Shown piece after piece: positions 735 to 58,096 of a DNA stretch of 64,000 nt; position 1 is the stretch's first letter; each line of letters starts with the position of its first letter. A program made the position numbers and the translations under genes. Below the pieces are notes generated by a model that was not told where the DNA came from, did no database searches, and worked only from the letters and a program-made list of their open reading frames with translations. The stretch is from Candidatus Collierbacteria bacterium UBA2277 (GTDB lineage: Bacteria; Patescibacteriota; Microgenomatia; UBA1400; MFAQ01), in the NCBI GenBank assembly GCA_002347045.1, contig DDWV01000002.1, positions 8,551-72,550 on the forward strand, in the 5' to 3' direction.

Positions 735-808
735 TGGGCGATCTTGGGGTCGAACCAAGCACCTCAGTCTTATCAGGACTGCGCTCTAACCAGATGAGCT
801 AATCGCCC
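735..808 (-). tRNA. tRNA-Ile (anticodon GAT)
   Basis: Reverse complement GGGCGAT-TA-GCTC-ATCTGGTTA-GAGC-G-CAGTC-CTGATAA-GACTG-AGGTG-CTTGG-TTCGACC-CCAAG-ATCGCCC-A. All four arms are canonical and no CCA is encoded. Confidence 0.9.
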
Positions 809-24425: not shown

Positions 24426-24468
24426 AGTATTTAGTATATTTTTTGTTATTTTTTTAATTTAACTAACG

Positions 24469-24551: not shown

Positions 24552-24556
24552 AGATA

Positions 24557-24586: not shown

Positions 24587-24659
24587 ATATCCAAAAAAGC
24601 TCTCCGTCCTAAAAGAAGAAATAGTGATAACCGAAAGCTTTATTAATCATATCTAACAT

Positions 24660-24690
24660 ATTTTACCATACAAAAATCCGCACCCGTCAA
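24660..24690 (-). promoter_or_regulatory. candidate promoter: -35 TTGACG (24685-24690), 19-bp spacer, extended -10 TGGTAAAAT (24660-24668)
   Basis: Minus strand reads TTGACGggtgcggatttttgtaTGGTAAAATatg. Confidence 0.5.
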
Positions 24691-24694
24691 AAAT

Positions 24695-26461: not shown

Positions 26462-26640
26462 GTTGGTTTGGGCCGTCAGTCTTTGTTCTTTATGCGACGC
26501 TACGCAGACTTGAATTGCTTGGTTCCACGAAGTGGAAATTCAAGTCGAGTATCGAGATAATTGTCGTTCGCAGGAAACGACAAATTATCGGTCGCCAATT
26601 AAGAATGAAGACAGAAGGCGATAAATAATATGTTAAAAAC

Positions 26641-26678
26641 AAAAAAACCACCCTTCTTGCAAGAACCCTTTCGGGTGG
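26641..26678 (-). terminator. rho-independent terminator (ccaccc...gggtgg enclosing palindrome ttcttgcaagaa) with U7 on minus
   Basis: Hairpin followed on the minus strand by ttttttt. Downstream of the 26814..27848 gene. Confidence 0.65.
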
Positions 26679-26813
26679 TTCCATCTTGCTTGCTAGGTAG
26701 CCTCTTAGTTCAAAGCGTTAGTGCTTTAGACTTGTTTTTCCCCGGTTGGTAGTCGGATCAACAAAACAATTCACTTGTAATCATGAGTATATCACTCTCC
26801 AAACAAAAAAATA

Positions 26814-27848: not shown

Positions 27849-27851
27849 TTT

Positions 27852-28424
27852 TTATAAGGATGCAATAAAATCTTTTAAATTCAAAATCTCTGTTTCTTCA
27901 TTTTTATCCAACTCACTAGTACCCTCTGGCCAGCTTACACCAAGTGCTGGATCAAACAAATCAAGTGTTTTCAAAGAATCAAATCTGTTAAAAGGTCTGT
28001 CTCCAACGGCAATATACATACTATCATCATCTATTGGCACAAAGGAATCAATCACACCATCAGGTACCAAAATTGAGTTCCCCCAGGCACGTTCATCTTC
28101 TCCCACAAGCAACTGAACCACCTTACCCTGACTACTTCCAGGTCTCATGTCAACCAGTACATGGAAAGTCATACCCTTAACCGTAACAATTTTTGACCTT
28201 CCTTCGAGATGACCACCCCTTATAACTCCTTTTTCAGACCAAATTGAATACATTGTTCTTGGCTCAAATCGATAACCCAAATAATAAGATATCTCGTTAA
28301 AATCAACATTCTCCATCAACCAACCATTTGCCTTTTCCTGATATTTTTTGGAACGGATAGAAATTAACCCAGGAATTTCCAGTTGTTTATAAGATCGAGA
28401 ACTCTGAGATTCATTTAGCTCCAT
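27852..28424 (-). CDS. RmlC-like cupin sugar-nucleotide epimerase/isomerase
   Basis: IRGGHLE and other RmlC/FdtA-like cupin motifs. 190 aa. Confidence 0.55.
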   Translation of the reverse strand: MELNESQSSRSYKQLEIPGLISIRSKKYQEKANGWLMENVDFNEISYYLGYRFEPRTMYSIWSEKGVIRGGHLEGRSKIVTVKGMTFHVLVDMRPGSSQGKVVQLLVGEDERAWGNSILVPDGVIDSFVPIDDDSMYIAVGDRPFNRFDSLKTLDLFDPALGVSWPEGTSELDKNEETEILNLKDFIASL

Positions 28425-28433
28425 TTTTATATT

Positions 28434-29912: not shown

Positions 29913-29929
29913 GTGTCTATTATATCTGA

Positions 29930-31672
29930 CTACATCTTCTCCACTGTCTCAATTCCCAAAAGCCATAGTCCATTTGATAGTATCTGAGAAACAGCCTTAG
30001 TCAAAGCCAATCTAAACACTTCCTTGTCCGTTCCAACTATCTTACAGTTAGCATAAAAAAGATTAAATCTTGATGAAAGCTCGATCAGATAAGAACAAAT
30101 CAAATTAGGTGACAAATTTTTTCCTGACACCTCTACTATTTCAGGAAAACGATACATCCATCTAGTAAGATTCTTTTCTTCGCTCGATACCTTTGTATCT
30201 GTCTTAACTAAAAACTCATATTTCCCAGACTTCTCTATTACACTCATAGCTCTCGCATAGGCATACTGCAAATACGGACCACTGTCCCCCTCAAAAGAAA
30301 GGGATGTCTCAAAGTCAAACAAAATATCCTTTCCGGGACTTTGTTTTAACATTGAGTATTTTATCGCCCCAACAGCCACCTTAGTTACTACCCTTTCAAC
30401 GTCTTTAATATCTTTACCTCTTCCTGTTTCAGCCATCTTTTTATCAATCTCTTCACTCACACTTTCCATCAAACTCTCTCCCGTAACAACCTGACCCGTC
30501 CTTGAAGACATTTTGCCATTTTTTAGCCTCAACATCCCATGACCCACATGAACCGTTTTTATAGCCAAATCTGGATAAATCAAGCTAGCCGCCTTCAAAA
30601 GCACTTTAAAATACTCGTTTATTTCATTTGCCGTCACAACGACAGATAAATCATAAGCAAATCTTTCAAACTTAGTATTCATCAGAGCAAGATCTTTTGC
30701 TTCGTATGTAGGCAGTCCCAACTTATTTCTGAAAACTCTTGTGTGAAGACCGTATCTTTCTCCCTCAAAAACCACAGCGCCCTTACTCTTCACAAACACT
30801 CCTTTTTTCAAAAACTCGTTCACCAAGTCGAGACTCAAATCACTCATCTCACTTTCATAAAAGCTCTCATCAAACTTCGTTCCAAGTTTTAGATATATTT
30901 TATCAAAGTACTCCATACTCCACTCTCTACCGAGATCGTAAACTATGTTTACCTTTTCATCCTCTCTTTTATAAATAATCTTATTCAGCAAATCAATTTC
31001 TTCCTTCACTTTCTCCATCTCCTCATATTCTTTTGCTCCACGAACATAAGCTTCTCCCATAAATCCTACTCGACTTTCGAGATCCATTTTCTCAAGTTGA
31101 TCAATATCAATATTCTTCTCAGCAAACAGCTCTCTTAATCCATAGATACACTTTGCCACATGCAAACCCACATCCCCCTGATAATTTGCCCTTCGAATAT
31201 CAGCACCCTGAAACTCCATCAATCTCGACAGAGACTCACCAATAGCATTACTCATTAGGTGACCTATGTGAAATAATTTAAAAGGATTTGGATCCGTATA
31301 CTCCACCATTACTTTCTTATCCGCCAAAGCTTTATTACTGCCAAAATATTCCTTTTCAGCCAAGACTCTTTTGACTTCACTAAGAAGAAACTCATCTTTC
31401 AAATAAAAATTTACAAATCCAGGACCAGCAGGCTCAATATCTTTTACATACTCAGCCAAAGTTTTGTTCGCTTGTAGCTTACCAATAAGATCAACAGCCA
31501 GCTCCCTTGGATTCCTTTTTAGCTCACTAGCCAATACTAAGGCAATATTTGTAGAATAGTCACCCAATTTTTCATCTTGAGGATGTTCCACAGCAAACTC
31601 TTTTCCCAATGATAGTTCGGCTACTGCATCATTTATTTTTTCTTTAATATTCATTGTATTGTTTATAATCAA
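29930..31672 (-). CDS. argS: arginyl-tRNA synthetase. Probable true start is ATG at 31654 (MNIKEKINDAV).
   Basis: HIGH-like PNPFKLFHIGHLMS, KMSSRTG, DALR anticodon-binding domain. 580 aa. The track start is TTG. Confidence 0.9.
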   Translation of the reverse strand: MIINNTMNIKEKINDAVAELSLGKEFAVEHPQDEKLGDYSTNIALVLASELKRNPRELAVDLIGKLQANKTLAEYVKDIEPAGPGFVNFYLKDEFLLSEVKRVLAEKEYFGSNKALADKKVMVEYTDPNPFKLFHIGHLMSNAIGESLSRLMEFQGADIRRANYQGDVGLHVAKCIYGLRELFAEKNIDIDQLEKMDLESRVGFMGEAYVRGAKEYEEMEKVKEEIDLLNKIIYKREDEKVNIVYDLGREWSMEYFDKIYLKLGTKFDESFYESEMSDLSLDLVNEFLKKGVFVKSKGAVVFEGERYGLHTRVFRNKLGLPTYEAKDLALMNTKFERFAYDLSVVVTANEINEYFKVLLKAASLIYPDLAIKTVHVGHGMLRLKNGKMSSRTGQVVTGESLMESVSEEIDKKMAETGRGKDIKDVERVVTKVAVGAIKYSMLKQSPGKDILFDFETSLSFEGDSGPYLQYAYARAMSVIEKSGKYEFLVKTDTKVSSEEKNLTRWMYRFPEIVEVSGKNLSPNLICSYLIELSSRFNLFYANCKIVGTDKEVFRLALTKAVSQILSNGLWLLGIETVEKM

Positions 31673-35787: not shown

Positions 35788-37595
35788 AAATCACAAAATA
35801 CTTCGTCAACATCAAAGAGTTTATCAGAACATACTCTTCTACAGTAAAAATTGCTTGGAGAACCAACAAATCCCTACTTGTAAAGGTCACCCTAGCCAAC
35901 GCATCCCGAGGAGCGTTGGTATATCCTTCCCTTCTAGTTTCCAAACTTCTTATAGACTCTGTAATGATAGCGATTACAACAAACAACGTCCAATCTGGTA
36001 TGAGGGGTATGGTCACTGCCACGATTTTTGGTTTTTTGATCGAAAAAACACTATTAATTCTCGAGGAAATTGACCACGTATATAGCAGTCAGCTATCTAG
36101 TCTTCTTTCAGAAAAAATTCAAATTTCTATCTCAAGAAAAATTAATCTACTTCCTGTAATCACCGCCGAGTCTCCAGAAACAAGAAACGTCCTCCAAAAA
36201 GTACTCGACAATGCCGGAAGATCTGTCTGGTCATTAATCACTCCAATTTCCACCTTTCCAGAGCTAATTCTTACCATCATATCGACCGCCATACCAATTA
36301 TCACTTTCCAACCGCTTATTATTATCCCCTGCATAATTCTTGCCATCCCAAATATCATCATTGGAGTAGGTTCATCCAAAGCAAAACATGCCCTCTCAAC
36401 CGAAGTCTCTCCAAAATGGAGAGTTTGGGGTGCTCTTGAAGATTTTGCAATTAAAGGGAAATATCTTTATGAAAACAAAATTCTTGCTCATGTTGAGATT
36501 CTCCTCACCCGACGTTTAAAAATGGCTCAATCAATTTTCAAACGTCGACAAAAACTCAACGCAGACTTTGCCAAAAAAAGGCAGATTGCTTCCTTGCCGC
36601 TTTCCATTTTCGAGTCAGCTTCAAGACTTTATTTTTACTATCTCGCTATTACTCAAATTCTTACGCTTGGTACTGCCCAAATTATTAGCAACTCAATCGG
36701 TAGATTTATTCAAAGCATAAGTCGTTTATTAAGACAAGCCAACGATGTATTTCAAAATTATCTATTCATTACCGACTACGAAACATTTATGGCCTTACCC
36801 GAAGAAGACCAAATAACAGGACATCATTTCCCAGAAGTAATAACTCAAGGAATAGAATTTCAACATGTTTGGTTTAAATATCCTCAATCCTCCGACTGGA
36901 TACTAAAGGATGTCTCTTTCAAAATCGAATCAGCTGAAAACATTGCCATCGTCGGCCAAAATGGAGCCGGAAAAACAACTCTCATCAAACTTATTTGTCG
37001 TTTTTACAAACCTCAGAAAGGAAGCATTCTCGTTAATGGTCAAAACATCGATGAATACAACCTAAAAGAGTATCGTTTCCAAATCTCAGCTCTATTCCAA
37101 GACTTTGCTCAGTACCCTTTCTCTGTCGAAGACAATATCCTTTTTGGAGACATCTCTAAAAAGAAAAGTCTCAAAAACATTAAGAGGGTAGCAAAACTTA
37201 CCAGTATTGACAAATTCGTTAATTCTTTGCCCCTAAAATACAAAAATCCTCTTGACAAAGAGTATGACAATGGAGTTGAACCGTCAAAAGGTCTCTGGCA
37301 ACGAGTTGCTCTAGCTAGAATTCTTTACCGACCTTCTGAAATTCTTATTCTTGACGAACCAACTTCAAATGTTGATCCCGAATCAGAAGAAGAAATCTTC
37401 ACAAAAGTTCTTGAGATTGCCAAGGAGAAAATTATATTTCTCGTTTCTCACCGTTTTTCGACTGTCAGAAAAGCTGACGAAATTCTCGTCCTCGAAAACG
37501 GATCAGTAATCGAATACGGCAAACACAAAGATCTCATGCAAAAAAACGGCCGTTACAAGGAGCTATTTGATATCCAAGCCCAAAGCTACCTCTAA
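35781..37595 (+). CDS. ABC transporter, fused permease/ATPase (type I exporter) with degenerate signature motif
   Basis: 6-TM N-domain, Walker A GQNGAGKTTL, Walker B ILILDEPTS, H-loop VSHR. The C-loop reads PSKGLWQRVALAR instead of LSGGQ. Confidence 0.8.
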   Translation: MPKITKYFVNIKEFIRTYSSTVKIAWRTNKSLLVKVTLANASRGALVYPSLLVSKLLIDSVMIAITTNNVQSGMRGMVTATIFGFLIEKTLLILEEIDHVYSSQLSSLLSEKIQISISRKINLLPVITAESPETRNVLQKVLDNAGRSVWSLITPISTFPELILTIISTAIPIITFQPLIIIPCIILAIPNIIIGVGSSKAKHALSTEVSPKWRVWGALEDFAIKGKYLYENKILAHVEILLTRRLKMAQSIFKRRQKLNADFAKKRQIASLPLSIFESASRLYFYYLAITQILTLGTAQIISNSIGRFIQSISRLLRQANDVFQNYLFITDYETFMALPEEDQITGHHFPEVITQGIEFQHVWFKYPQSSDWILKDVSFKIESAENIAIVGQNGAGKTTLIKLICRFYKPQKGSILVNGQNIDEYNLKEYRFQISALFQDFAQYPFSVEDNILFGDISKKKSLKNIKRVAKLTSIDKFVNSLPLKYKNPLDKEYDNGVEPSKGLWQRVALARILYRPSEILILDEPTSNVDPESEEEIFTKVLEIAKEKIIFLVSHRFSTVRKADEILVLENGSVIEYGKHKDLMQKNGRYKELFDIQAQSYL

Positions 37596-38093
37596 CTCCT
37601 TCAAAATATCTACAAAAACCACCTTAAGATCTTTTACTTCCTCCTTGCTAACTTTCGACAAAACATAATCAGCTCCAGTGCCATAATTTACACTAGGTTG
37701 ACGATTGTCTACTCCAACTCTAACACGCCAAAAATCATCTGTTCCCAAACTCTGCTCAATTGATTTTATTCCATTATGAACTTTTGGTCCCACCCCTTTT
37801 TGAATCTTATACTCACCAAAAGCGATATCCAAGTCATCATGAATTACAACAACATCATTTGAGGAAAGTTTATAAAAATCCAAAATTTTTCTTACTGCTC
37901 TCCCCGACTCATTCATAAATGTCTGGGGTTTTACTATTATTAAGCCATCTTTCTTTACCATCAAAGCCTCTTTTTTACTATCCAAAGAGAACTCTTCTCT
38001 TCGCAGTATTTGATCCAAAAACATAAAGCCCACATTATGTCTAGTTTTCTCATACTCTTCACCTGGATTTCCTAAACCTACAATTATTTTCAT
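37563..38093 (-). CDS. pth: peptidyl-tRNA hydrolase
   Basis: MKIIVGLGNPGEEYEKTRHNVGF. 176 aa. Confidence 0.88.
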   Translation of the reverse strand: MKIIVGLGNPGEEYEKTRHNVGFMFLDQILRREEFSLDSKKEALMVKKDGLIIVKPQTFMNESGRAVRKILDFYKLSSNDVVVIHDDLDIAFGEYKIQKGVGPKVHNGIKSIEQSLGTDDFWRVRVGVDNRQPSVNYGTGADYVLSKVSKEEVKDLKVVFVDILKELEVALGLDIK

Positions 38094-40882: not shown

Positions 40883-42610
40883 TTAGGGATTTGAAATTCT
40901 TGCAATTTCTTTTACTTCTCTCCAGGTTGTTGATTGGTCCGCTGCTTTGTCTTGTCTAAATCTTACTAACCTAGGAAAACGCAAGGCCACACCAGCCGCA
41001 TGGATAGTACTCTTAGTAATTTCATCAGCCGCCACTTCCACCACAAACTTAGGCTCAACCCACACGTCTGCAATCAAAGACCCTTCAACCAAGTAATTAT
41101 CTGGTTTCTCCGATAGTTCTATAGTATCCAAACTTTTCCTCAAACTTCGAAACTCGTCATCGGTTAAACCTGTTCCAATCTTAGCCAGAGACACCCATAA
41201 ATCACTCTTTTTTATTCCTACTAAAAATGCCCCTATTCCAAAACCAGCCCTCTTTCCTCTCCCGTAGTAATACCCCAAAACAACCAAGTCTAAAGTATCA
41301 GACAACTTACCACTTACTCCTTCAATCTCCTTAATCTTTACCCAGTTCCAACCCTGTCTTCCAGGAAGATAACCGCCGTCCCATACCTTCATCACTGCAC
41401 CTTCAAAACCTTCATCAAGATATTTCTGATGAAGACTCATAACCTCCTTGGCGCTATCCACTCTTTCATACTCATCAACAACTCCTACTTCGTTTGAAGA
41501 CACCGTCTCAGCTAACACCTTTCTTCGTTTAGAATATGGCATATCCAACAAACTAACATTGTCTTTACATAAAATATCAAACAAGAAAAAACGAATCGGA
41601 ACTGCCTCAGCCGTGTTCGCGATATTGTGTTTTCTTTTTCTGGTCATCGTCACTTGAAAAGGCAATACCTTACCCGTCTCTTTATCATATCCAGCCGCTT
41701 CACAGTCCAAAATCACCTGATCCGCTTTTATCCATTTCCCCATATCAAAAAGCTCAGGAAACATCCAACTATTTTCTTCTAAATTCCTCGTGAAAGTTTT
41801 TACTTCATTCGTTTGGCGATTAAAATGAATCTGTACTCGTGTTCCATCAAACTTTCTTTCTACAGCCAAGTTTTTCATCTTTTTAACAATCTCATCGTAT
41901 TCGTTCAAACGCTGGCACAAAGCTGGCACAACTGGAACGCCAACCTGCACTCTTATCTCGCTCAATCCCGCAAACCCTTTTTCTTTTACAACCTTCGCTA
42001 TATGTCCGGGGTCAGGATATATCTGAAAAACTGAGTCCAATCTTTTTCTCAAAGACTTGTCTCCATTCTCCATTTGAGACAAAGCATCAAAAATTGTTTT
42101 CGAAGAAAAACCCAGTCGCAGTCTTCCCACAACCATCCTCGCAATATATTTTCTTTCCAGAACACTCACTTCCAAAAATACTTTTGAAAGTTCATTTACT
42201 TTTCTATCTTGGCTACCCTGACCGCTATCTTTAGCAATCGTCAACAAAGACTCATATATCTCTGTCAAGCTATGTCCTACCCATTTTTCATTCATAAACA
42301 GAGTTTTTTCCAACAGCAGCCCCAAATCTCCTTTTTGTTTATAGTCTGTTGTAATCTCCTCTATCGACTTATCGGTAGCCATCGCAATGGCCCTTATAAC
42401 CATTTTTACAGCCATTCCAAACTCTATATTCGCAAAGTCTGGTCCTAACTGTCCCAGCACCAAATAAATCCCTCTATCTGTCTCCGAAACATCCATTTCC
42501 TGAATCAAATCAGACAACACATCTGTAATCTCTAATCTCGAAGAAATTTTTTCTAGTTTTTCTAAATACTCGGCGAATTTCTTGAACTGCATACTCACAT
42601 TGTAACCCAC
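40883..42610 (-). CDS. lig: ATP-dependent DNA ligase
   Basis: KFDGTRVQIH adenylation motif, OB domain. 575 aa. Confidence 0.85.
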   Translation of the reverse strand: MGYNVSMQFKKFAEYLEKLEKISSRLEITDVLSDLIQEMDVSETDRGIYLVLGQLGPDFANIEFGMAVKMVIRAIAMATDKSIEEITTDYKQKGDLGLLLEKTLFMNEKWVGHSLTEIYESLLTIAKDSGQGSQDRKVNELSKVFLEVSVLERKYIARMVVGRLRLGFSSKTIFDALSQMENGDKSLRKRLDSVFQIYPDPGHIAKVVKEKGFAGLSEIRVQVGVPVVPALCQRLNEYDEIVKKMKNLAVERKFDGTRVQIHFNRQTNEVKTFTRNLEENSWMFPELFDMGKWIKADQVILDCEAAGYDKETGKVLPFQVTMTRKRKHNIANTAEAVPIRFFLFDILCKDNVSLLDMPYSKRRKVLAETVSSNEVGVVDEYERVDSAKEVMSLHQKYLDEGFEGAVMKVWDGGYLPGRQGWNWVKIKEIEGVSGKLSDTLDLVVLGYYYGRGKRAGFGIGAFLVGIKKSDLWVSLAKIGTGLTDDEFRSLRKSLDTIELSEKPDNYLVEGSLIADVWVEPKFVVEVAADEITKSTIHAAGVALRFPRLVRFRQDKAADQSTTWREVKEIARISNP

Positions 42611-48064: not shown

Positions 48065-49201
48065 TTATTTTTCAATTATTTTATCAAGTACTCGGGTCAC
48101 ATTTTTTACAAACTCATCCCTAGAAAATCTTTTTGCATTTTCTACAATTTTTTTTCTATCCCATTTTATTTTATTAAAACGTCTCATTGCCTTTTCAATA
48201 GTCTTCTCATCGGTTCCTTTAATCAAAATTCCTGTCTCACCATCAATCACAGACTCTCGAAAGCCACCCCCATCATACGCAATTACTGGTGTCCCAGCTG
48301 CCATTGCCTCGACCACAGTTATTCCAAAATCTTCTTCTTTAGCCAAAGCTATAAACCCTCTTGCTTTAGCATATATTTTTCTCAAACTTTCATCATCCAC
48401 CCTCCCTAGAAGTTCCACCCCTTTTATTCTTTTCAAACTCTTTTCAATCCGAGAAAATCCAACCGCTTCACCCACAATTTTAAGAGAAAAACCTTGTCTT
48501 TGTGCCGCTTTTGCAGCCTCCTCCAAACCCTTAGCACCCACAATTCTTGACACAATTAAAAAATAGTCCTCTTTTTCTGTTTCTTTGCTTACTTTTATCA
48601 ACTCATCTACCTGTACAGGTGGATATACAACCACAGACTCTCTTCTGTAGTACTTCATTACTCTCGACTGAACGTTTTTCGAGTTAACCATCCAAATATC
48701 TACCATCTGAGAAGACCAAGAGTCAAAAATTCTTAAAAAATGATTTACTACAACAGCATATACTCGCACTATCCAATACTTCATCAGATTTATACTTGTT
48801 TCATAGCCATACAAAAACCTCGGAGGTGTATGACAATAGGCCACAACACTAGTTTTTGGACCAACTTTAAATCCCCTTGCAAAGTAAGAGGAACAAGAAG
48901 TGATTACCAGATCATACGAAGACAAATCAATAGAGCCCCAAATTAGTGGAGCCAAAAATCTCAATGGACTGTGAAAATTTGCTTGTTTTATCAACCAACC
49001 CCACTTACTTTCAATTATTTTTCTATCTTCAAACTCAAGATCACAGCTCGAACCCCTTACCCTAAAAGCAGTGTATATTGGAGCCGTGGGGTACATATCT
49101 GCCAATACACGCAGTACTCTCTCAGCACCCCCAAACTCTTTTATATAATCGTGTACTAGTGCAATTTTCATAAAAAGATCTCTTCCGTTTCTTTTTCCCA
49201 A
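48065..49201 (-). CDS. glycosyltransferase family 4
   Basis: EDFGITVVEAMAAGTPVIA. 378 aa. Confidence 0.75.
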   Translation of the reverse strand: MGKRNGRDLFMKIALVHDYIKEFGGAERVLRVLADMYPTAPIYTAFRVRGSSCDLEFEDRKIIESKWGWLIKQANFHSPLRFLAPLIWGSIDLSSYDLVITSCSSYFARGFKVGPKTSVVAYCHTPPRFLYGYETSINLMKYWIVRVYAVVVNHFLRIFDSWSSQMVDIWMVNSKNVQSRVMKYYRRESVVVYPPVQVDELIKVSKETEKEDYFLIVSRIVGAKGLEEAAKAAQRQGFSLKIVGEAVGFSRIEKSLKRIKGVELLGRVDDESLRKIYAKARGFIALAKEEDFGITVVEAMAAGTPVIAYDGGGFRESVIDGETGILIKGTDEKTIEKAMRRFNKIKWDRKKIVENAKRFSRDEFVKNVTRVLDKIIEK

Positions 49202-50085
49202 GAATCACGAGGCATTCGTGGAACAAGGCTTCGAAAACCCAACTCTTCAAAAAGCAACAAAGCCTTGGACTTATCATAATTTGTCAACAGACAATCTTCC
49301 CAATCAATCTTTAGAGGAGCTTCGTTGTTTATCTCTGCCAACTCATAGCTTTGCATTGCCATCTCTTTATCTGCAATCAATAACTCTCTTACTCTTTTGC
49401 TAATCTTGTCACTCTCAATGTTCTCATACACTCCCTTCAAACATCCAAACTCTTGTACTAGCTTTGTAGCTGTTACTTTTCCCACACCTTTCACACCAGG
49501 AATATTATCAGAAGAATCTCCCATCAAGCTCTTCAAATCCACTATCTGTTTCGGTTTAAAACCATAAGTTTCCACTACTTTTTCTTCATCAAACACAGTT
49601 GCTTGTGAAGCTTTATTTTGCAAAGGTAAATAGACTACAATTTGCTTCCCTTTAATCAATTGAAGTGCATCTCTATCTGCCGTAGCTATTACCACCTGAG
49701 TATCAGACTCACTCTCTTCATCAGTCGCCAATCTTGCCAAGGTACCTATCAGATCATCTCCTTCGTATCCCTCAATCCCAAACTGAGGTATGTTCAAAAC
49801 TTCTACAACTTGCTTTGTTCTTTCAATCTGTGATACCAGCTCATCATCCATAGGACTACGATTAGCCTTGTATTTATCGTACTTCACTTTTCGAAAAGTA
49901 GGTCCTTTCAAATCCCAAGTAACTGCAGCATGAGTAGGGCCAAGCTTGCTTAGGATAGTAAGTAACATCGAAGTAAAACCATAAACAGCATTTATCAATT
50001 CACCCTTGGGCGTCGAAAGAGGAGGAAAACCATGATATGCCCTATGCAGCAATGAATTTCCGTCAATCAATATCAATTTCCTCAT
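49168..50085 (-). CDS. stand-alone 5'-3' exonuclease (Pol I N-terminal / FEN-like domain)
   Basis: [20 protein letters not shown]3TH region GDSSDNIPGVKGVG. 305 aa. Confidence 0.8.
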   Translation of the reverse strand: MRKLILIDGNSLLHRAYHGFPPLSTPKGELINAVYGFTSMLLTILSKLGPTHAAVTWDLKGPTFRKVKYDKYKANRSPMDDELVSQIERTKQVVEVLNIPQFGIEGYEGDDLIGTLARLATDEESESDTQVVIATADRDALQLIKGKQIVVYLPLQNKASQATVFDEEKVVETYGFKPKQIVDLKSLMGDSSDNIPGVKGVGKVTATKLVQEFGCLKGVYENIESDKISKRVRELLIADKEMAMQSYELAEINNEAPLKIDWEDCLLTNYDKSKALLLFEELGFRSLVPRMPRDSWEKETEEIFL

Positions 50086-51962: not shown

Positions 51963-52298
51963 CTATCTTATCATCGTTCCAAGCACGACACTCTCATCCA
52001 AAAATATCAATTTAGGTCCATCCTTATCATCAATCATAATTGTCATCCCCTGACTAATCTCATCTCCCATTTTTTTAGGCTCCATATTTATAATCACAGG
52101 CATAATCTTTCCAATCATGTCTTCTGCTGAGTACCACTTTCTTATTCCACTAAAAAGAACTCTTTTACCCAGCTCTTTCCCAAAGTCCATCTCATATCGA
52201 ATTAGTTTTTCACTCCACTCAGGAGCCGAAGCAGCGACAACTTTACCTGCTCGGATATCGAGTTTGTCAAACTCAGAATAGGTAATTAAGTCTTTCAT
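51963..52298 (-). CDS. tRNA-binding protein (Trbp111/CsaA/EMAP-like OB domain)
   Basis: 111 aa. Homology to the C-terminal tRNA-binding domain of MetRS. Confidence 0.65.
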   Translation of the reverse strand: MKDLITYSEFDKLDIRAGKVVAASAPEWSEKLIRYEMDFGKELGKRVLFSGIRKWYSAEDMIGKIMPVIINMEPKKMGDEISQGMTIMIDDKDGPKLIFLDESVVLGTMIR

Positions 52299-52299
52299 A

Positions 52300-53298
52300 T
52301 TAGAATTTATAATTAATTTTCATTGCCGTCTTTACTGAACTTAGCGTTTCTTCAGTCACAGCCACCCCTTTTATAACACCATCTTTCAAAATCTCATTTA
52401 CTTTGTCCGGATTACTTTCTAAAGCTAATCTTCGAACTCTCATAGGTTCAAGAAAGTCATTGATTGCAATTATCAATTTTTGCTTTACCTCAACATCCCC
52501 TACAGCTCCCTCACGATATCTAACTTTCAAATCCTCGACCTCTTTTCTATTTTTATTAAAAGCATCATGATAAATAAACACCGGATTACCCTCAACCGTT
52601 CCTGGGTCTGTTGGCTTAAGCCTGTTTGGATCTGTGTACATACTCATCACTTTCTTTTTTACCTCATCTGCACTATCTGACAAATATATACAGTTTCCCA
52701 AACTTTTACTCATTTTTGCTTTTCCATCCAACCCAACCAACCTTGGATAATCTCCAATTAAAGCCTCAGGCTCAACCAAAGTCTCACCATACAAAGAATT
52801 AAATTTACGCACTATCTCTCTTGTTTGTTCAATCATTGGAAGCTGATCATCCCCCACAGGAACCAAATCAGCAGCAAAGGCAGCTATATCTGCCGCCTGG
52901 GACACTGGATACATCGCGAAACCTGAAGGAACAGACTCTCCAAAACCTTTTAGCTCTATCTCAGTCTTAACAGTCGGATTTCTCAAAACTCTATTCAAAC
53001 TAACCAAATTCATAAAGAAAACAGTCAGTTCAGCTATGGCGGGTATCCTTGACTGCACCACAATGGTACTTTTCTCTGGGTCAATCCCCGCGGCAACGTA
53101 ATCGAGAACCAAATCTCTAACTGAATCAGCAACCACCTGAGGATTAGCAAAATTATCCGTCAAAGCCTGAACGTCCGCAATCAAAACATACTGTTCATAC
53201 TCATCCTGAAGCCGAACCCTATTGGACAAAGAACCCACATAATGTCCCAAATGCAATCGGCCGCTAGGCCTGTCACCAGTTAAAATTCTTTTCTTCAT
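52300..53298 (-). CDS. trpS: tryptophanyl-tRNA synthetase
   Basis: GDRPSGRLHLGHY (HIGH region), KMSKS. 332 aa. Confidence 0.88.
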   Translation of the reverse strand: MKKRILTGDRPSGRLHLGHYVGSLSNRVRLQDEYEQYVLIADVQALTDNFANPQVVADSVRDLVLDYVAAGIDPEKSTIVVQSRIPAIAELTVFFMNLVSLNRVLRNPTVKTEIELKGFGESVPSGFAMYPVSQAADIAAFAADLVPVGDDQLPMIEQTREIVRKFNSLYGETLVEPEALIGDYPRLVGLDGKAKMSKSLGNCIYLSDSADEVKKKVMSMYTDPNRLKPTDPGTVEGNPVFIYHDAFNKNRKEVEDLKVRYREGAVGDVEVKQKLIIAINDFLEPMRVRRLALESNPDKVNEILKDGVIKGVAVTEETLSSVKTAMKINYKF

Positions 53299-53332
53299 TT
53301 TTCAATTTTATCCTAATTTGCTCACCAAAAAG

Positions 53333-53406
53333 TAGCAAGGGTGGGTATCGAACCCACTACCTGCGGTTTATGAATCCGCCGCTCTAACCATTTGAGCTAC
53401 CTTGCC
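53333..53406 (-). tRNA. tRNA with CAT anticodon (elongator Met or Ile2-lysidine type; not initiator-like)
   Basis: Reverse complement GGCAAGG-TA-GCTC-AAATGGTTA-GAGC-G-GCGGA-TTCATAA-ACCGC-AGGTA-GTGGG-TTCGATA-CCCAC-CCTTGCT-A. The anticodon stem lacks the three consecutive G-C pairs of initiator tRNA. Confidence 0.8.
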
Positions 53407-54037: not shown

Positions 54038-54913
54038 ATGGAACAAATAGATCAAAATATCTTACAAGCTATTACTGCTTTCAAAAGTCATTTGGCTTCT
54101 CAAGGCAGAGCTTCTGCTACCATTTTAGCCTACTCCAAAGACATTGAGCAGTTAGCAAACTTTGTTGCAAAATCAAACAAAACTAATCTCGATCAAGTTA
54201 CCAAAGCTGATATTGATGCTTTTAAAGAGAGTTTATCCTCAGCAAACTACACCACCAAATCAATTTCTCGCAAGATAAACTCTATCAAATCATTCTTTGG
54301 ATACGTTCAATCCAAAGGGGCCATCACCGAAAATCCGGCAACTGAAGTCACACACCCTAAATATGACATCAAACCTCCTCGTATTCTAAACAAAATTGAG
54401 TATCGCGCACTTCGTGACGCTTGTCGTGAAGACCTTCGTATGGCTGCAATTGTTGAACTCTTACTTCAAACAGGCATGAGAATTTCAGAACTTGCCAACC
54501 TAAAAATATCTGATATCGATTCAAACAATAATCAAATTACTATCAAGGCTTACGAATCTCACCCAGAACGAGTCATTCCTTTAAACCAGCCAGTGAAAGA
54601 GTCTTTAGCTCGCTACATGGACATCAGACCAAAAAGTGGCAACACCTATGTATTCATCACAAAGACAGGTAATCCTTTTCTCATCAGAAATATCCGTTCA
54701 AATCTTGACCGCTATTTCCACATTGCTGGAATCGAAAATGCCAAGGTAAATGATCTGCGTCACACATTTATAGCCCAGCAACTCACTTCAGGCAGTCCTC
54801 TTGTTTACATCAGTAAGCTCGTCGGCCACAAAAGACTATCTACTACAGAAAAATATCTTGAGTTCATCTCTGAAAAACCAGCTAAGGACAAGCCAAAGCT
54901 CATCGATCTTTAA
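54038..54913 (+). CDS. tyrosine recombinase XerC/XerD family
   Basis: SAM-like N-domain, catalytic R...HxxR...Y (LRHTFIAQQL ... GHKRLSTTEKYL). 291 aa. Confidence 0.85.
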   Translation: MEQIDQNILQAITAFKSHLASQGRASATILAYSKDIEQLANFVAKSNKTNLDQVTKADIDAFKESLSSANYTTKSISRKINSIKSFFGYVQSKGAITENPATEVTHPKYDIKPPRILNKIEYRALRDACREDLRMAAIVELLLQTGMRISELANLKISDIDSNNNQITIKAYESHPERVIPLNQPVKESLARYMDIRPKSGNTYVFITKTGNPFLIRNIRSNLDRYFHIAGIENAKVNDLRHTFIAQQLTSGSPLVYISKLVGHKRLSTTEKYLEFISEKPAKDKPKLIDL

Positions 54914-54932
54914 TCGTCACATAAAATTAATT

Positions 54933-54965
54933 AAAAAAACTAGCCTTTTTTGGCTAGTTTTTTTA
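54933..54965. terminator. bidirectional terminator (aaaaaaactagcc tttttt ggctagttttttt)
   Basis: 6-bp stem flanked by A-runs and T-runs on both sides. Serves the convergent genes. Confidence 0.65.
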
Positions 54966-55302
54966 ATGTCTCCAAGGTAGTCTGCGACAAAAAACCTAAA
55001 ACCTCTCCCATCTTGTCAACCGAACCTACGGCCATTGCCAACCAGCCAGAAGTTGATTTCCTTGTGTCCTCAATTACTACAAACGCATTTTTGACACCGG
55101 TAATCTCCATTTGTTCACCCGTAGCCTCATCTTCAACAAAAATTGTTACCGGATTACCACTTTTGCCTAAATTAATATTTCCAGAAATAACCATCTCGGA
55201 TGACCATGCCCCTCCATTAACTACATCTCCCAACTCCTCATTAGGAAGAGCCAGCCTCAAAAACTTGTCATTCTTCAACTTCACTTTTGTCTTTCTCTTC
55301 AT
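54940..55302 (-). CDS. hypothetical protein (120 aa)
   Basis: ORF track only. It starts 6 nt after tRNA-Ile(TAT). Confidence 0.35.
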   Translation of the reverse strand: MKRKTKVKLKNDKFLRLALPNEELGDVVNGGAWSSEMVISGNINLGKSGNPVTIFVEDEATGEQMEITGVKNAFVVIEDTRKSTSGWLAMAVGSVDKMGEVLGFLSQTTLETLKKLAKKG

Positions 55303-55307
55303 ACTTG

Positions 55308-55381
55308 TGGGCCGACTAGGATTCGAACCTAGGACATCGAAGGTATAAGCTTCGCGCTCTAACCAGCTGAGCTATCGGCCC
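55308..55381 (-). tRNA. tRNA-Ile with anticodon TAT (UAU)
   Basis: Reverse complement GGGCCGA-TA-GCTC-AGCTGGTTA-GAGC-G-CGAAG-CTTATAC-CTTCG-ATGTC-CTAGG-TTCGAAT-CCTAG-TCGGCCC-A. Perfect cloverleaf, U33, A37. Confidence 0.85.
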
Positions 55382-55409: not shown

Positions 55410-57731
55410 CTAAAGTTTACTTCTTTTCTCAATTTCTTCATCCACCTCGGCAACATCTCTTCCATACTTTAATCTAGACAATTCTTTAATCATTCTAGCC
55501 ACCTCAGGGCTTCCTTGAGCCCTCTCAGCCTTAAGATCTCGACTAACATCCATCGAAAAGGGAGGGACTGGAGAAGAATTAATTATAGTTTTTGTATAAA
55601 CCATCTGTGCCGGCACATTGGTCAAGTCAGTTTCGTTAAACATTGGGTCAAACTCTTTAGACAAGATAGCGGCATCTTGCATACCGACACGATAAGACAT
55701 CAATGTACCAACATTTCCAAAAATAGCGTCACGCACCTGTTCGTCTAGTTGACTCACAAACTGATTTGCCAAAATCAAAGAAACCGCATATTTACGAACT
55801 TCAGAAAGCATCTGAGCAAAGTCTGGTGTTGCAAAATTTTGAAACTCGTCAACATAAAGATTAAATGGTCTCCTTTGATCTGCTGGAATATCTTGCCTAG
55901 ACAAAGCAGCAGCCAAAATTTTTGGGATCAAAATCAAACCCAAAAAACTTGCGTCCTCTTCTCCCAAGAGACCCTTGGCTAACTTAAGGAAAACTATCTT
56001 GCCCGTATCCATTGCATCACGGAAATTCAACGAACTTTTTGATTGACCAATGATATTTCGTATCATTTTGTTTGTTACGAATCGTCCAAACTTAGAAGAA
56101 ATATAGTCCAGCGTCTCACTCTTATGAAAATCTGAAGTTTGAGCAATCTGATCCGTCCAGTATCGCCTTACAATAGGATCCTTTACCAGAGGTAGAATTT
56201 CCTGAACATATTTCTGGTCAGTCAACACTCTATTAACCTCAATAAAGGTAGAGCCCGGAACAACAGCGACAGTCAACATAGCATTGCGAACAGCGTGTTC
56301 AAATCTAGCACCCACCATTCCAGTTCGATGTGGATCAAAAAGCTTGTACATCAAATTTATGATTGACGAAGCCACTTGATACATCTCATCATAACTACTA
56401 ACCTCCAAAAGATTAAAACCAATCGGCCTTTCCTTATCAGATGGATCGAAAAAGATAACATCTTCAGCTCTCTCAGGAGGAACAAGCTCCATTAATTGTT
56501 CAATTCCTTCACCATGAGGCTCCAAGAAACAAAGGCCTTTCCCTGCTCTCATGTCCTGAATAATCATCGATTTTAATAACTCAGTCTTTCCGGTTCCGGT
56601 TCTTCCAATTATGTACATATGGCGCATTCTGTCTTGCTCGCTCATATAAATATTTCTTTCCTGACCGCGATACACAGATCTACCCAACCACAGGCCGGAA
56701 GGAGGAAAGCCACCGGTTGCCGGAGCAGACTTAGCTGTCAGCCAAAAAATATGCGGTGTGTCCACCAATTTATTTGGAAGATGCCAAATAGAAGCCAGTT
56801 CATCACTTGACAACACAGAGTTGTTTCCCCACAAGTTTTGATATCGATAAATAAAGTCCGTCATAAACATCTGTTTAAGTCGAATCTTTTTCCCAGAAAA
56901 ACTATTCTGGTTCCCCGCAAACTGAGAAAAAGTACTTTTTAAGTTCGAAAGATTCGCTTTTGCCTGCCCTTCACTTGAGGCCACACTTATCATTCTCACG
57001 CTAGTTAAAAATCCAACTTTGCTACATTTGCTCGTGATGGCTTCCATCTCTTGAGGATTCATCTTGTACTTTGCTTTTTCAGGACTAGATTCATCTTTTT
57101 TTAGTTTTGACACATATCCTTCCCCAGACTTACTCCAGTCAGACTCAGCAGGAGACACTATTATCTGAACTACAGCAGCCTCATTATCAGAAAACTTTGC
57201 CATAGAAGCTGTAATTGCAGAAAGCGAATCTACCGGTAAATCTTTATATGTTTTTATTGGCATAAAACTTGGATTTTTCAAAGAAAGCTCTGCAAAGGCT
57301 ATCGACGCATCCTTGTAAAAAACGTTATATTCATCAACCTGCTTTACCTGAACTCCGGAATATGTCCCTGCAATCATCTTTTCAATTAGCTCAACATTAT
57401 CTTTATGGCAAGAAACATAAAATCGAATATCTTCTTTTTTACCAACTATCTCCAAAGATATGTGCTGTTGTGACTTAAACTTCTGCCAAAAACCTCCTTT
57501 CTTTATTGAAAACAATGACGAAAACATCTGCTCAACTGCATCCACTTTCACTTCATTATCTCTTGGTACAGCAACCTCCATCAAAACAAAATTCATACTC
57601 ACCTCTTCTCTATTTTTATTTCTAAGCCAGATCACGAAAGCCATCCAACAGACAATCAGTAAGCCAATTACTACAACCAACCCGACAATCAATACTACGA
57701 AATACTGAATTATTTCACTAGAATTAATCAT
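55410..57731 (-). CDS. TraD/TrwB/VirD4-like (type IV coupling protein family) membrane ATPase with large N-terminal extra domain
   Basis: Two N-terminal TM segments, Walker A IIGRTGTGKTELLKSM, CFLEPHGE, Walker B LYVDEFQNF. 773 aa. Confidence 0.6.
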   Translation of the reverse strand: MINSSEIIQYFVVLIVGLVVVIGLLIVCWMAFVIWLRNKNREEVSMNFVLMEVAVPRDNEVKVDAVEQMFSSLFSIKKGGFWQKFKSQQHISLEIVGKKEDIRFYVSCHKDNVELIEKMIAGTYSGVQVKQVDEYNVFYKDASIAFAELSLKNPSFMPIKTYKDLPVDSLSAITASMAKFSDNEAAVVQIIVSPAESDWSKSGEGYVSKLKKDESSPEKAKYKMNPQEMEAITSKCSKVGFLTSVRMISVASSEGQAKANLSNLKSTFSQFAGNQNSFSGKKIRLKQMFMTDFIYRYQNLWGNNSVLSSDELASIWHLPNKLVDTPHIFWLTAKSAPATGGFPPSGLWLGRSVYRGQERNIYMSEQDRMRHMYIIGRTGTGKTELLKSMIIQDMRAGKGLCFLEPHGEGIEQLMELVPPERAEDVIFFDPSDKERPIGFNLLEVSSYDEMYQVASSIINLMYKLFDPHRTGMVGARFEHAVRNAMLTVAVVPGSTFIEVNRVLTDQKYVQEILPLVKDPIVRRYWTDQIAQTSDFHKSETLDYISSKFGRFVTNKMIRNIIGQSKSSLNFRDAMDTGKIVFLKLAKGLLGEEDASFLGLILIPKILAAALSRQDIPADQRRPFNLYVDEFQNFATPDFAQMLSEVRKYAVSLILANQFVSQLDEQVRDAIFGNVGTLMSYRVGMQDAAILSKEFDPMFNETDLTNVPAQMVYTKTIINSSPVPPFSMDVSRDLKAERAQGSPEVARMIKELSRLKYGRDVAEVDEEIEKRSKL

Positions 57732-58096
57732 TGTGCATTTTCAGGAGGAAGATAAAAAACTCTTCCTGGATACTTTTTAATCATCATTACACACCACTCA
57801 GAAAGCCATCTCACGCTATCCTTTACTGTATGACGCAAACCCTCAGACACGTCTTCTTGACCCATAGGTAACACAATTTTATTTTGCCCTTGTACGGCAA
57901 ACTGAGCCGAAACAATCTTTCCCATGTCATCACTTGGCTGTTTTTGATTTGAAACATTCTGCTGTGAAGGCACACTTACTTTCTGTTGTGTCTCAGCCTG
58001 TTTCTCCACCTTCTCAACATAACCAACAGCCTCAACACCTGAAGGTGCTTGTTCTGTAATAACTGGACGTTCAATTTCCTTACCTGGTGCAGGCAT
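57728..58096 (-). CDS. hypothetical protein (122 aa)
   Basis: 4-bp overlap with the T4CP-like gene. Gln/Ser-rich. Confidence 0.4.
   Translation of the reverse strand: MPAPGKEIERPVITEQAPSGVEAVGYVEKVEKQAETQQKVSVPSQQNVSNQKQPSDDMGKIVSAQFAVQGQNKIVLPMGQEDVSEGLRHTVKDSVRWLSEWCVMMIKKYPGRVFYLPPENAQ

What the first reader, a model, noticed from the sequence alone, without database searches (positions are those of the whole stretch)
55308..55381. tRNA-Ile with UAU anticodon
A perfectly folded tRNA has anticodon loop CUUAUAC (anticodon UAU), which would read AUA directly. Most bacteria instead use tRNA-Ile2 (CAU modified to lysidine by TilS). UAU isoacceptors are rare, known for example in Mycoplasma mobile and some lactobacilli. 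A separate CAT-anticodon tRNA (53333-53406) lacks initiator features and could be elongator Met or a lysidine-type Ile2.
Basis: partly seen in the sequence, partly recalled or inferred. Interest (0 to 1): 0.55.

Follow-up and report, generated by a model that had tools for sequence, protein, structure and literature searches.

The report
Conserved AUA-reading isoleucine tRNA (UAU)
The window, from an uncultured Collierbacteria-type bacterium of the Candidate Phyla Radiation, carries a real isoleucine tRNA that reads the AUA codon directly with a UAU anticodon, and the same gene sits at the same place in many related lineages, so this is a trait of the whole group and not a one-off.

Summary
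Confirmed. ARAGORN and Rfam (71.5 bits) both call a tRNA at 55308-55381 on the minus strand, with anticodon loop CUUAUAC (UAU).

The window matches the MAG GCA_002412665.1. Its closest named relatives are Candidatus Collierbacteria (Microgenomates, CPR).

- **Distribution.** The gene lies 28 nt after a conserved DUF8128/TrwB-like ATPase gene. A tRNA-Ile(UAU) follows that gene in 48 of 80 related species, including Collier-, Levy-, Woese-, Curtiss-, Gottesman-, Davies- and Dojkabacteria. It also occurs in 30 of 80 metagenome contigs recovered with the neighbouring FtsH.
- **Selection.** In an alignment of 49 of the 78 distinct copies, 99.7% of cloverleaf cells pair and 19 of 21 pairs show compensatory changes. 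C32-U33-U34-A35-U36-A37 and A73 are invariant.
- **Codon meaning.** AUA makes up 30% of Ile codons in the window and aligns with AUU/AUC in homologues, so AUA means Ile.
- **The CAT tRNA (53333-53406).** It is an elongator tRNA-Met (C3-G70, A4-U69, A5-U68), not a lysidine-type Ile2.
- **TilS.** No TilS, and no Ile2-like tRNA among 114 CAU tRNAs, was found in 2.2 Mb of related DNA. Whole genomes could not be read, so loss of TilS is likely but unproven.

This is a new member of a known rare kind. The clade-wide conservation was not mentioned in any paper of the library searched.

The parts
55308..55381 (-). tRNA-Ile gene with anticodon UAU (anticodon loop CUUAUAC). It is the proposed direct decoder of AUA.
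   Evidence: ARAGORN. Rfam tRNA 71.5 bits. Sequence read. In an alignment of 49 homologues, 99.7% of cells pair and 19 of 21 pairs show compensatory changes.
55410..57731 (-). Gene for a 773-aa DUF8128 + TrwB/VirD4-like P-loop ATPase. It is the conserved upstream neighbour, and the tRNA starts 28 nt after its stop codon.
   Evidence: NCBIfam gives weak TraD/VirD4 hits. Pfam gives DUF8128 and TrwB_AAD_bind. There are homologues in 80 CPR species, and a tRNA-Ile(tat) follows in 48 of them, within 150 nt in 24.
54940..55302 (-). Small ORF (120 aa, no family match) directly downstream of the tRNA on the same strand.
   Evidence: ORF list. No NCBIfam hit. Present in the protein collection as 'hypothetical protein'.
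54930..54967 (-). Terminator-like hairpin (16-bp stem followed by a T run) closing the ATPase - tRNA - small ORF stretch.
   Evidence: Consensus scan. This is a pattern match only. No promoter-like site was found in the 28-nt gap before the tRNA.
54038..54913 (+). Xer-type tyrosine recombinase gene lying between the two tRNAs. It is treated as context, not as a sign of an inserted mobile element.
   Evidence: NCBIfam XerA/XerC/XerD hits at E about 1e-48, all below the curated cut-offs. Homologues in 38 matches across the related loci. No repeat of the tRNA 3' end elsewhere in the window.
53333..53406 (-). Elongator tRNA-Met (anticodon CAU). It is neither an initiator nor a lysidine-type Ile2.
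   Evidence: ARAGORN and Rfam. It has G1.U72, C3-G70, A4-U69, A5-U68 and loop UUCAUAA. It was judged against the discriminators of Silva et al. 2006. It falls in the same class as 79 non-initiator CAU tRNAs of related loci.
735..808 (-). tRNA-Ile(GAU), the decoder of AUU/AUC, next to the 16S rRNA gene. It is 75% identical to the UAU tRNA and has the same D arm.
   Evidence: ARAGORN and Rfam. Pairwise identity.

Best explanation
This is a functional gene for a minor isoleucine tRNA whose unedited anticodon UAU pairs by Watson-Crick geometry (U34 with A) with the isoleucine codon AUA. It belongs to a Collierbacteria-type member of the Microgenomates (Candidate Phyla Radiation). It is probably transcribed with, or read through from, the ATPase gene just upstream and then cut out by the usual tRNA processing enzymes. 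CCA is added after transcription because it is not encoded. The same gene is kept at the same position in many Microgenomates and Dojkabacteria lineages, so it is an old, selected part of the decoding set of that clade. That set consists of GAU for AUU/AUC, UAU for AUA, and two CAU tRNAs (initiator and elongator) for AUG. My inference, not shown, is that it is the main and probably the only AUA decoder. It would thus take the place of the usual bacterial pair of tRNA-Ile2(CAU) and the lysidine synthetase TilS, as in Mycoplasma mobile. How the cell prevents U34 from also reading AUG, and how its IleRS recognises U34, are not known.
For: Shown:
- Two independent detectors find the tRNA and the cloverleaf is perfect.
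- 48 of 80 related species carry a tRNA-Ile(tat) after the same ATPase gene, 33 of them within 600 nt. A further 30 copies lie in 80 FtsH-anchored metagenome loci.
- In the 49-sequence alignment every helix shows compensatory changes (306 cells changed on both sides, against 85 +/- 7 in shuffles), while C32 U33 U34 A35 U36 A37 and A73 never vary.
- AUA is used at 20.9 per 1000 codons and makes up 30% of Ile codons in 45 window genes.
- Window AUA codons align to AUU/AUC in homologues 36.7% of the time, to Val 19% and to Leu 17%. This is the same profile as window AUU/AUC codons and unlike AUG.
- The body is Ile-like: G3-C70 in 44 of 49, C4-G69 in 40 of 49, U12-A23 in 45 of 49.

Supporting the 'only decoder' inference:
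- None of 114 CAU tRNAs in 2.2 Mb of related DNA is Ile2-like.
- No TilS was found by Pfam in the window.
- No TilS was found by tblastn in 160 loci.
- A PP-loop motif scan found only MnmA-type ORFs.
- Nothing was found within 10 kb beyond either window end.
Against: - The whole genome was not available. tilS and a tRNA-Ile2(CAU) could lie elsewhere, as in Lactobacillus casei, which has both systems.
- The IleRS of the lineage was not found, so nothing is known about its type or about the residue at the wobble-recognition site.
- A plain U34 is expected to wobble with G. No feature that would prevent AUG misreading was identified.
- There are no expression, charging or modification data.
- The Met/Ile2 discriminators come from 234 genomes that included no CPR bacteria.
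- 14 loci with at least 3 kb of sequence downstream of the ATPase gene lack the tRNA there, including Roizman-, Shapiro-, WWE3- and Doudnabacteria. The trait, or at least the synteny, is therefore not universal in the CPR.
Confidence: 0.8

Rival explanations
1. Redundant decoder. The lineage also keeps TilS and a tRNA-Ile2(CAU) elsewhere in the genome, and the UAU tRNA merely adds capacity for a frequently used AUA codon. This is the situation proposed for Lactobacillus casei, Cyanothece and Ferrimonas.
For: Bacteria with both systems exist (PMC3575796). TilS was reported in 98% of 1093 surveyed bacteria and described as evolutionarily stable (PMC6063277). Only about 84 kb of this genome was inspected, namely the window plus about 10 kb on each side.
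Against: There is no TilS and no Ile2-like CAU tRNA in 2.2 Mb from about 160 related contigs. Small CPR genomes rarely keep redundant systems (general knowledge). The anticodon is invariant in all 78 distinct copies across deep lineages, which indicates strong selection and fits an essential, non-redundant role.
Confidence: 0.25
2. The gene is cargo of a mobile element or phage, or a decaying pseudogene. This was suggested by the tyrosine recombinase and the VirD4-like ATPase that flank it.
For: A Xer/integrase-family gene lies 400 nt away and a TraD/VirD4-like ATPase gene lies directly upstream.
Against: The ATPase, the recombinase and the tRNA are syntenic across many candidate phyla. There is no duplicated tRNA 3' end (att-like repeat) in the window. 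No IMG/VR viral contig carries the sequence. The GC content and GC skew profiles are uniform across the region. Covariation shows purifying selection on the fold.
Confidence: 0.02
3. Changed code or changed identity. The UAU tRNA is charged with Met or another amino acid, so that AUA is not Ile in this lineage, as in many mitochondria.
For: None was found. It was considered only because a UAU anticodon could in principle read both AUA and AUG.
Against: AUA positions behave like AUU/AUC positions and unlike AUG positions in alignments with homologues. The acceptor stem and discriminator are Ile-type and differ from the local tRNA-Met class, which has C3-G70 and A4-U69.
Confidence: 0.02

Closest known systems
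Mycoplasma mobile tRNA-Ile2(UAU), the TilS-independent AUA decoding system (Taniguchi et al. 2013, PMC3575796)
   Same: Both are bacterial tRNA-Ile genes with a genomic TAT anticodon in an AT-rich, small genome that uses AUA heavily. Both tRNA bodies resemble tRNA-Ile(GAU). No tilS was seen in the DNA inspected here.
   Different: In M. mobile the absence of tilS, an unmodified U34, the Arg865 adaptation of IleRS and discrimination by the ribosome were all shown experimentally. None of these could be tested here. M. mobile is one species within a TilS-positive group, whereas here the gene is conserved across many candidate phyla.
tRNA-Ile(UAU) of Bifidobacterium and Neorickettsia, which lack tilS and have a eukaryote/archaeal-type IleRS
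   Same: Both are bacterial UAU isoacceptors that replace tRNA-Ile2(CAU).
   Different: Those lineages are linked to a type-2 IleRS. The IleRS type of the Microgenomates was not determined here.
Lactobacillus casei, Cyanothece and Ferrimonas, which have tRNA-Ile(TAT) together with tilS
   Same: A UAU isoacceptor is present in a bacterium.
   Different: Those genomes demonstrably keep TilS and so have redundant decoding. Here TilS was not found, but it was not excluded either.
Canonical bacterial tRNA-Ile2(CAU) with lysidine (LAU) made by TilS
   Same: It does the same job, decoding AUA as Ile, and has an Ile-type acceptor stem.
   Different: The canonical tRNA has C34 in the gene and depends on an essential modification for both codon reading and IleRS recognition. 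Here the gene has T34 and no editing of the wobble base is needed to pair with A.
Archaeal tRNA-Ile3(UAU) of Nanoarchaeum equitans and Korarchaeum cryptofilum, and eukaryotic cytoplasmic tRNA-Ile(UAU)
   Same: These have a UAU anticodon in place of a modified-C34 tRNA. They also occur in ultra-small, host-dependent cells.
   Different: They belong to different domains. Eukaryotes modify U34 and U36 to pseudouridine (textbook knowledge). Nothing is known about modification here.

Membership tests
tRNA (Rfam RF00005) | Cloverleaf with conserved tertiary nucleotides, scoring above the family's gathering threshold | tested here: met
   71.5 bits against a gathering score of 29. ARAGORN also calls it. 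99.7% of cells pair, with compensatory changes in 19 of 21 pairs across 49 homologues.
Isoleucine-accepting tRNA | Anticodon A35 U36 with A37, discriminator A73, and an Ile-type acceptor and D stem (G3/A3-C70/U70, C4-G69, U12-A23) | tested here: met
   A35, U36, A37 and A73 are invariant. G3-C70 occurs in 44 of 49, C4-G69 in 40 of 49 and U12-A23 in 45 of 49. The 3-70 and 4-69 criteria are from Silva et al. 2006. U12-A23 and A73 as IleRS determinants are from my memory of E. coli work. A38 and C29-G41 are not kept in the window copy.
Isoleucine-accepting tRNA | The codon it reads is translated as Ile | tested here: met
   Window AUA codons align to AUU/AUC, Val and Leu in homologues in the same way as AUU/AUC codons do, and unlike AUG codons. 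This is indirect, comparative evidence.
Isoleucine-accepting tRNA | Aminoacylation by IleRS | not testable with these tools
   This needs biochemistry. The IleRS gene of the lineage was not found in the window or in 2.2 Mb of related loci.
TilS-independent AUA decoding (M. mobile type) | tRNA-Ile gene with a TAT anticodon | tested here: met
   All 78 distinct homologues also have TAT.
TilS-independent AUA decoding (M. mobile type) | No tilS gene in the genome | tested here: inconclusive
   None was found in the window (Pfam/NCBIfam). None was found within 10 kb beyond either end. None was found in 160 related loci by tblastn with E. coli TilS or by PP-loop motif scan. Whole genomes could not be read; one search shows that walking along contigs is blocked.
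TilS-independent AUA decoding (M. mobile type) | No tRNA-Ile2(CAU) gene in the genome | tested here: inconclusive
   All 114 CAU tRNAs near the locus in related genomes are initiators or C3-G70/U3-A70 elongator types. The rest of each genome was not seen.
TilS-independent AUA decoding (M. mobile type) | IleRS adapted to U34, either by Arg/Lys replacing the Trp that stacks on the wobble base or by being a type-2 IleRS | not tested
   The IleRS sequence of this lineage could not be retrieved with the tools.
TilS-independent AUA decoding (M. mobile type) | U34 unmodified, with the ribosome rejecting AUG | not testable with these tools
   This needs mass spectrometry of the tRNA and ribosome binding assays.
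   The tRNA has C3-G70, A4-U69 and A5-U68, judged against the criteria of Silva et al. 2006. It is therefore filed as elongator tRNA-Met.
Bacterial initiator tRNA-fMet, for the CAT tRNA at 53333-53406 | A mismatch at positions 1 and 72, A11-U24, and R29G30G31/Y39C40Y41 | tested here: not met
   It has a G1.U72 pair, C11-G24 and anticodon stem GCGGA/ACCGC. The initiators of related genomes form a separate class, CGCGGGG...CCCCGCAA.

The most novel reading that the evidence does not exclude
The whole Microgenomates/Dojkabacteria radiation, comprising thousands of species, has no lysidine system. It decodes AUA solely with a genomically encoded UAU anticodon held at a fixed chromosomal position. 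That would make it by far the largest bacterial clade outside the 'TilS is universal and stable' rule. It would also be a natural test set for how U34 is kept from reading AUG, and for whether UAU decoding is ancestral, as proposed for LUCA by Taniguchi et al., or was regained.
Probability: 0.55. Interest if true: 0.65.

Novelty: new member of a known kind. Interest (0 to 1): 0.5.

Why it matters
Textbooks and recent reviews state that prokaryotes have lost the UAU anticodon and that nearly all bacteria need the essential enzyme TilS to read AUA. The known bacterial exceptions number fewer than 20 species.

Here the UAU tRNA is a conserved, position-fixed gene across at least seven named candidate phyla of the Microgenomates, plus Dojkabacteria. 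If whole-genome checks confirm that TilS and tRNA-Ile2(CAU) are absent, three things follow:
- A large part of bacterial diversity decodes AUA without lysidine.
- TilS-based 'universal essential gene' lists and completeness marker sets need a caveat for CPR genomes.
- tRNA annotation pipelines should not report Ile2(CAU) as missing in these genomes.

The result also offers many natural sequence variants for studying how IleRS and the ribosome cope with an A/G-ambiguous U34.

Tried and rejected
1. **TilS in the window.** All 52 substantial ORFs were scanned with Pfam or NCBIfam. The only PP-loop enzyme is MnmA.
2. **TilS and IleRS in related DNA.** tblastn with E. coli TilS and IleRS against 80 genome loci and 80 metagenome loci found no TilS and no IleRS; only the window's LeuRS cross-matched. 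An SGGxDS motif scan of 2.2 Mb found only MnmA-type ORFs.
4. **A database-wide TilS search with the search for homologous proteins.** This was not run. Protein names in that collection carry no organism, and any available TilS query (E. coli, Geobacillus, Aquifex) would rank hundreds of thousands of non-CPR TilS first. A negative result would therefore mean nothing.
5. **Mobile-element origin.** There is no att-like repeat and no viral contig with the sequence, and the synteny is conserved. Rejected.
6. **Literature.** No paper in the library combines tilS or lysidine with CPR or Patescibacteria. The supplement of the complete Microgenomates genome paper has no tilS or IleRS entry.
7. **Origin of the UAU gene.** I first thought the G3-C70/C4-G69 acceptor marked descent from Ile2(CAU). 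The window's tRNA-Ile(GAU) has the same pairs, so the origin (from GAU or from CAU) is left open.

Full report
**Observation.** ARAGORN finds five tRNA genes in the window, all on the minus strand. Among them are tRNA-Ile(tat) at 55307-55381 and tRNA-Met(cat) at 53332-53406. Rfam's tRNA model matches 55308-55381 at 71.5 bits, the best of the five, against a gathering score of 29. Read on the minus strand, the RNA folds into a textbook cloverleaf:
- acceptor GGGCCGA/UCGGCCC
- D arm GCUC-AGCUGGUUA-GAGC
- anticodon arm CGAAG-CUUAUAC-CUUCG
- variable loop AUGUC
- T arm CUAGG-UUCGAAU-CCUAG
- discriminator A73, with CCA not encoded

Free-energy folding alone recovers the acceptor and T stems but not the D arm and only part of the anticodon arm, with z = -2.5. 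Such partial recovery is not unusual for a tRNA.

**Organism.** The window has 39% G+C and a very strong, uniform GC skew of -0.2 to -0.45. Nearly all genes are on the minus strand. The 773-aa protein encoded just upstream of the tRNA occurs with identical sequence on NCBI contig DHVM01000007.1 of the MAG GCA_002412665.1 and on a 188.7-kb JGI metagenome contig. Its closest named relatives among one-genome-per-species contigs are Candidatus Collierbacteria, at 78% identity. Next come Levy-, Woese-, Curtiss-, Gottesman-, Davies-, Roizman-, Shapiro- and Dojkabacteria, WWE3, Doudna- and Berkelbacteria. Collierbacteria belong to the Microgenomates group of the Patescibacteria/CPR.

**The gene is a clade-wide, position-fixed feature.**
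- The tRNA begins 28 nt after the stop codon of the ATPase gene (55410-57731). That protein has a DUF8128 domain and a TrwB/VirD4-like P-loop ATPase domain.
- In the 80 loci recovered with that protein, ARAGORN finds a tRNA-Ile(tat) in 48.
- The tRNA lies within 150 nt of the end of the ATPase match in 24 loci and within 600 nt in 33. It is on the same strand in 40.
- Five of the loci without it end less than 300 nt after the gene. Fourteen have at least 3 kb downstream and still lack it, including Roizman-, Shapiro-, WWE3- and Doudnabacteria.
- A second, independent set of 80 metagenome loci was recovered with the neighbouring FtsH (56-87% identity, 1.13 Mb). It holds 30 more tRNA-Ile(tat) genes, 29 of them new sequences.

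**Selection on the fold and the anticodon.** I aligned 49 distinct copies (alignment A1) and imposed the cloverleaf.
- 99.7% of 1029 cells form standard pairs, against 69% in column shuffles and 36-44% when partners are slid.
- 19 of 21 pairs show changes on both sides.
- 306 cells are compensatory, against 85 +/- 7 in shuffles.
- The stems vary freely, yet C32, U33, U34, A35, U36, A37 and A73 are invariant. Position 38 is A in 30, C in 18 and U in 1.

This is the signature of a working tRNA whose anticodon is under strict selection. It is not the pattern of a decaying or recently transferred gene.

**Identity and codon meaning.** The acceptor stem has G3-C70 in 44 of 49 copies, with A3-U70 in four, and C4-G69 in 40 of 49. 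The D stem has U12-A23 in 45 of 49. Silva et al. (2006) found that G3/A3 or C70/U70 never occur in bacterial tRNA-Met or tRNA-fMet and mark tRNA-Ile. The window's tRNA-Ile(GAU) at 735-808 has the same acceptor pairs and D arm and is 75% identical to the UAU tRNA. The CAU tRNA is only 65% identical to it.

In 45 confidently identified window genes (17,113 codons), AUA occurs 358 times. That is 20.9 per 1000 codons and 30% of Ile codons, more than twice the count for AUC. I aligned six window proteins to their homologues in the loci. Positions with AUA in the window carry AUU/AUC in 36.7% of homologue cells, Val in 19%, Leu in 17%, AUA in 10.5% and Met in 7.5%. Window AUU/AUC positions give almost the same profile: 43-46% Ile, 19% Val, 7-13% Leu. 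AUG positions are clearly different: 26% Met, 21% Leu, 12% Ile. So AUA means Ile here and is a common codon that needs an efficient decoder.

**The CAT tRNA.** The tRNA at 53333-53406 has G1.U72, G2-C71, C3-G70, A4-U69, A5-U68, anticodon loop UUCAUAA and A73.
- It lacks the initiator marks, namely a 1-72 mismatch, A11-U24 and the G/C-rich 29-31/39-41 stack.
- It also lacks the Ile2 marks, namely G3/A3 or C70/U70 with C4-G69 and C5-G68.
- Across both locus sets there are 114 CAU tRNAs, and they fall into two classes.
- One class holds 41 initiators: 35 were recognised directly, and 6 more were mis-registered by my script but have the CGCGGGG...CCCCGCAA sequence.
- The other class holds the non-initiators. 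All of them have C3-G70 (68 by script, plus one corrected by eye) or U3-A70 (4).
- None is Ile2-like.

The window's CAT tRNA is therefore an elongator tRNA-Met. In many loci the UAU tRNA, the initiator and the elongator Met tRNA lie within a few kb of each other. An Ile2(CAU) never joins this cluster.

**Is the usual system (TilS plus tRNA-Ile2) absent?** This is the decisive question and I could answer it only in part.
- No window ORF matches TilS. The only PP-loop enzyme is MnmA, at 4247-5374.
- tblastn with E. coli TilS (taken from NC_000913) finds nothing in the first 80 loci plus the window, nor in the 80 FtsH loci.
- A motif scan for SGGxDS in all ORFs of at least 150 aa over 2.2 Mb finds only MnmA-type proteins and two chance hits.
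- The 10 kb beyond each window end adds nothing.
- The FtsH neighbourhood is where tilS sits in many Firmicutes and Actinobacteria (my recollection, not tested). In 80 relatives it holds TrpRS, a small tRNA-binding protein and tRNAs instead.
- Whole genomes could not be read.
- Names in the big protein collection carry no organism, so a TilS homology search could not have been interpreted. I did not run it.
- IleRS was likewise not found. The test of Taniguchi et al., Arg/Lys in place of Trp at the wobble-stacking position or a type-2 enzyme, remains open.

**Other readings.**
- A mobile-element origin was suggested by the Xer-type recombinase (54038-54913) and the VirD4-like ATPase. It is rejected. 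Both genes are conserved neighbours across candidate phyla. No repeat of the tRNA 3' end exists in the window. No IMG/VR contig carries the sequence. Base composition is uniform.
- A change of codon meaning is rejected by the codon alignment.
- Redundancy with TilS remains the one serious rival.

**Likely transcription.** No sigma-70-like site lies in the 28-nt gap before the tRNA. A strong hairpin with a T run follows the small ORF downstream, at 54967-54930. These are pattern matches only. They suggest the tRNA is made from the ATPase transcript or from read-through.

**Comparison with what is known.** tRNA-Ile(UAU) in bacteria is documented in 17-19 species, mainly Mycoplasma, Bifidobacterium and Neorickettsia. 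In M. mobile the absence of tilS, an unmodified U34, IleRS Arg865 and ribosomal rejection of AUG were shown. A few species keep both systems. TilS was found in 98% of 1093 bacteria and called evolutionarily stable. A 2021 review states that UAU is lost in prokaryotes, and a 2026 preprint speaks of 'rare cases'. No paper in the searchable library mentions tilS or lysidine together with CPR, Patescibacteria or Candidate Phyla Radiation. The object is therefore a new member of a known, rare kind. What appears to be undescribed is its conservation and fixed position across a large uncultured radiation.

**Verdict.** The tRNA is real, isoleucine-type, under strong selection and old in its lineage. 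Confidence is about 0.8 that it is the working AUA decoder, and about 0.55 that it is the only one and that the clade lacks lysidine altogether. Interest is moderate (0.5). A specialist would not be astonished by one more UAU tRNA in a reduced genome. A lysidine-free radiation of this size would be a real correction to the accepted picture, and it can be tested in an afternoon with whole genomes.

Noticed in passing
window 1-64000: There is a very strong, uniform strand asymmetry. GC skew is -0.19 to -0.45 in every 4-kb bin, and almost all genes are on the minus strand. A similar disparity was reported for a complete Microgenomates genome (PMC7143001).
   Followed up: partly
window 735-3079; L165 12296-21128: The 16S rRNA gene (1580-3079, minus strand) is followed by tRNA-Ile(GAU), but no 23S rRNA gene lies within the next 6.5 kb on the longer ENA contig. 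Protein genes, including a Dus dihydrouridine synthase, follow instead. The rRNA genes therefore appear unlinked.
   Followed up: yes
L010 10511-10580, L011 10515-10585, L024 10963-11033, L025 10072-10142 and about 30 others: The initiator tRNAs of many Microgenomates are only 70-71 nt long. They have U1 or C1 opposite A72, a 6-nt D loop and a D stem GUGU/GCAC, which gives U11-A24. A11-U24 was reported as 100% conserved in bacterial initiators (Silva 2006). Dojkabacteria-type loci (L065-L072) have the normal GAGC/GCUC stem.
   Followed up: partly
window 53333-53406 and related loci: The elongator tRNA-Met has a G1.U72 wobble pair at the top of the acceptor stem, as do 33 of the 79 non-initiator CAU tRNAs. 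In the window copy there is also an A31/A39 mismatch at the bottom of the anticodon stem, with loop UUCAUAA.
   Followed up: partly
window 12587-31672 and 52300-53298: There is an unusual concentration of aminoacyl-tRNA synthetase genes: LeuRS, two class II Asp/Asn/Lys-type enzymes, a Pro/Gly-type class II enzyme, HisRS, TyrRS, ThrRS, ArgRS and TrpRS. Peptidyl-tRNA hydrolase (37563-38093) and MnmA (4247-5374) lie in the same window.
   Followed up: no
window 51963-52298: A free-standing 111-aa tRNA-binding-domain protein (PF01588) is encoded between TrpRS and FtsH.
   Followed up: no
window 7693-11746: This is a cluster of three RimK-like ATP-grasp genes, one of them fused to a zinc-protease-like domain, next to a 7TM_transglut membrane protein gene.
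   Followed up: no
window 40883-42610: An ATP-dependent DNA ligase of the archaeal/eukaryotic three-domain type (DNA_ligase_A_N/M/C) is present. A stand-alone 5'-3' exonuclease (49168-50085) matches only the N-terminal part of DNA polymerase I.
   Followed up: no
L004-L021 and others: Many 'TPA_asm' MAG records carry titles such as 'uncultured Gammaproteobacteria' or 'Pseudomonadales bacterium'. One is titled Bathyarchaeia, one Limisphaerales and one Methylomirabilota. All of them nevertheless carry this CPR-specific ATPase gene, and often the tRNA-Ile(UAU) as well. Their titles look like placeholder or wrong taxonomy.
   Followed up: no
window 55410-58096: The DUF8128/TrwB-like ATPase resembles type IV coupling proteins (TraD/VirD4) only weakly, yet it is a single-copy conserved gene across the CPR. 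Its reading frame overlaps by 4 nt that of an unannotated 122-aa ORF upstream (57728-58096). It may belong to the Patescibacteria type IV secretion-like system described in a 2025 preprint (10.1101/2025.01.22.634366), which I did not read.
   Followed up: no
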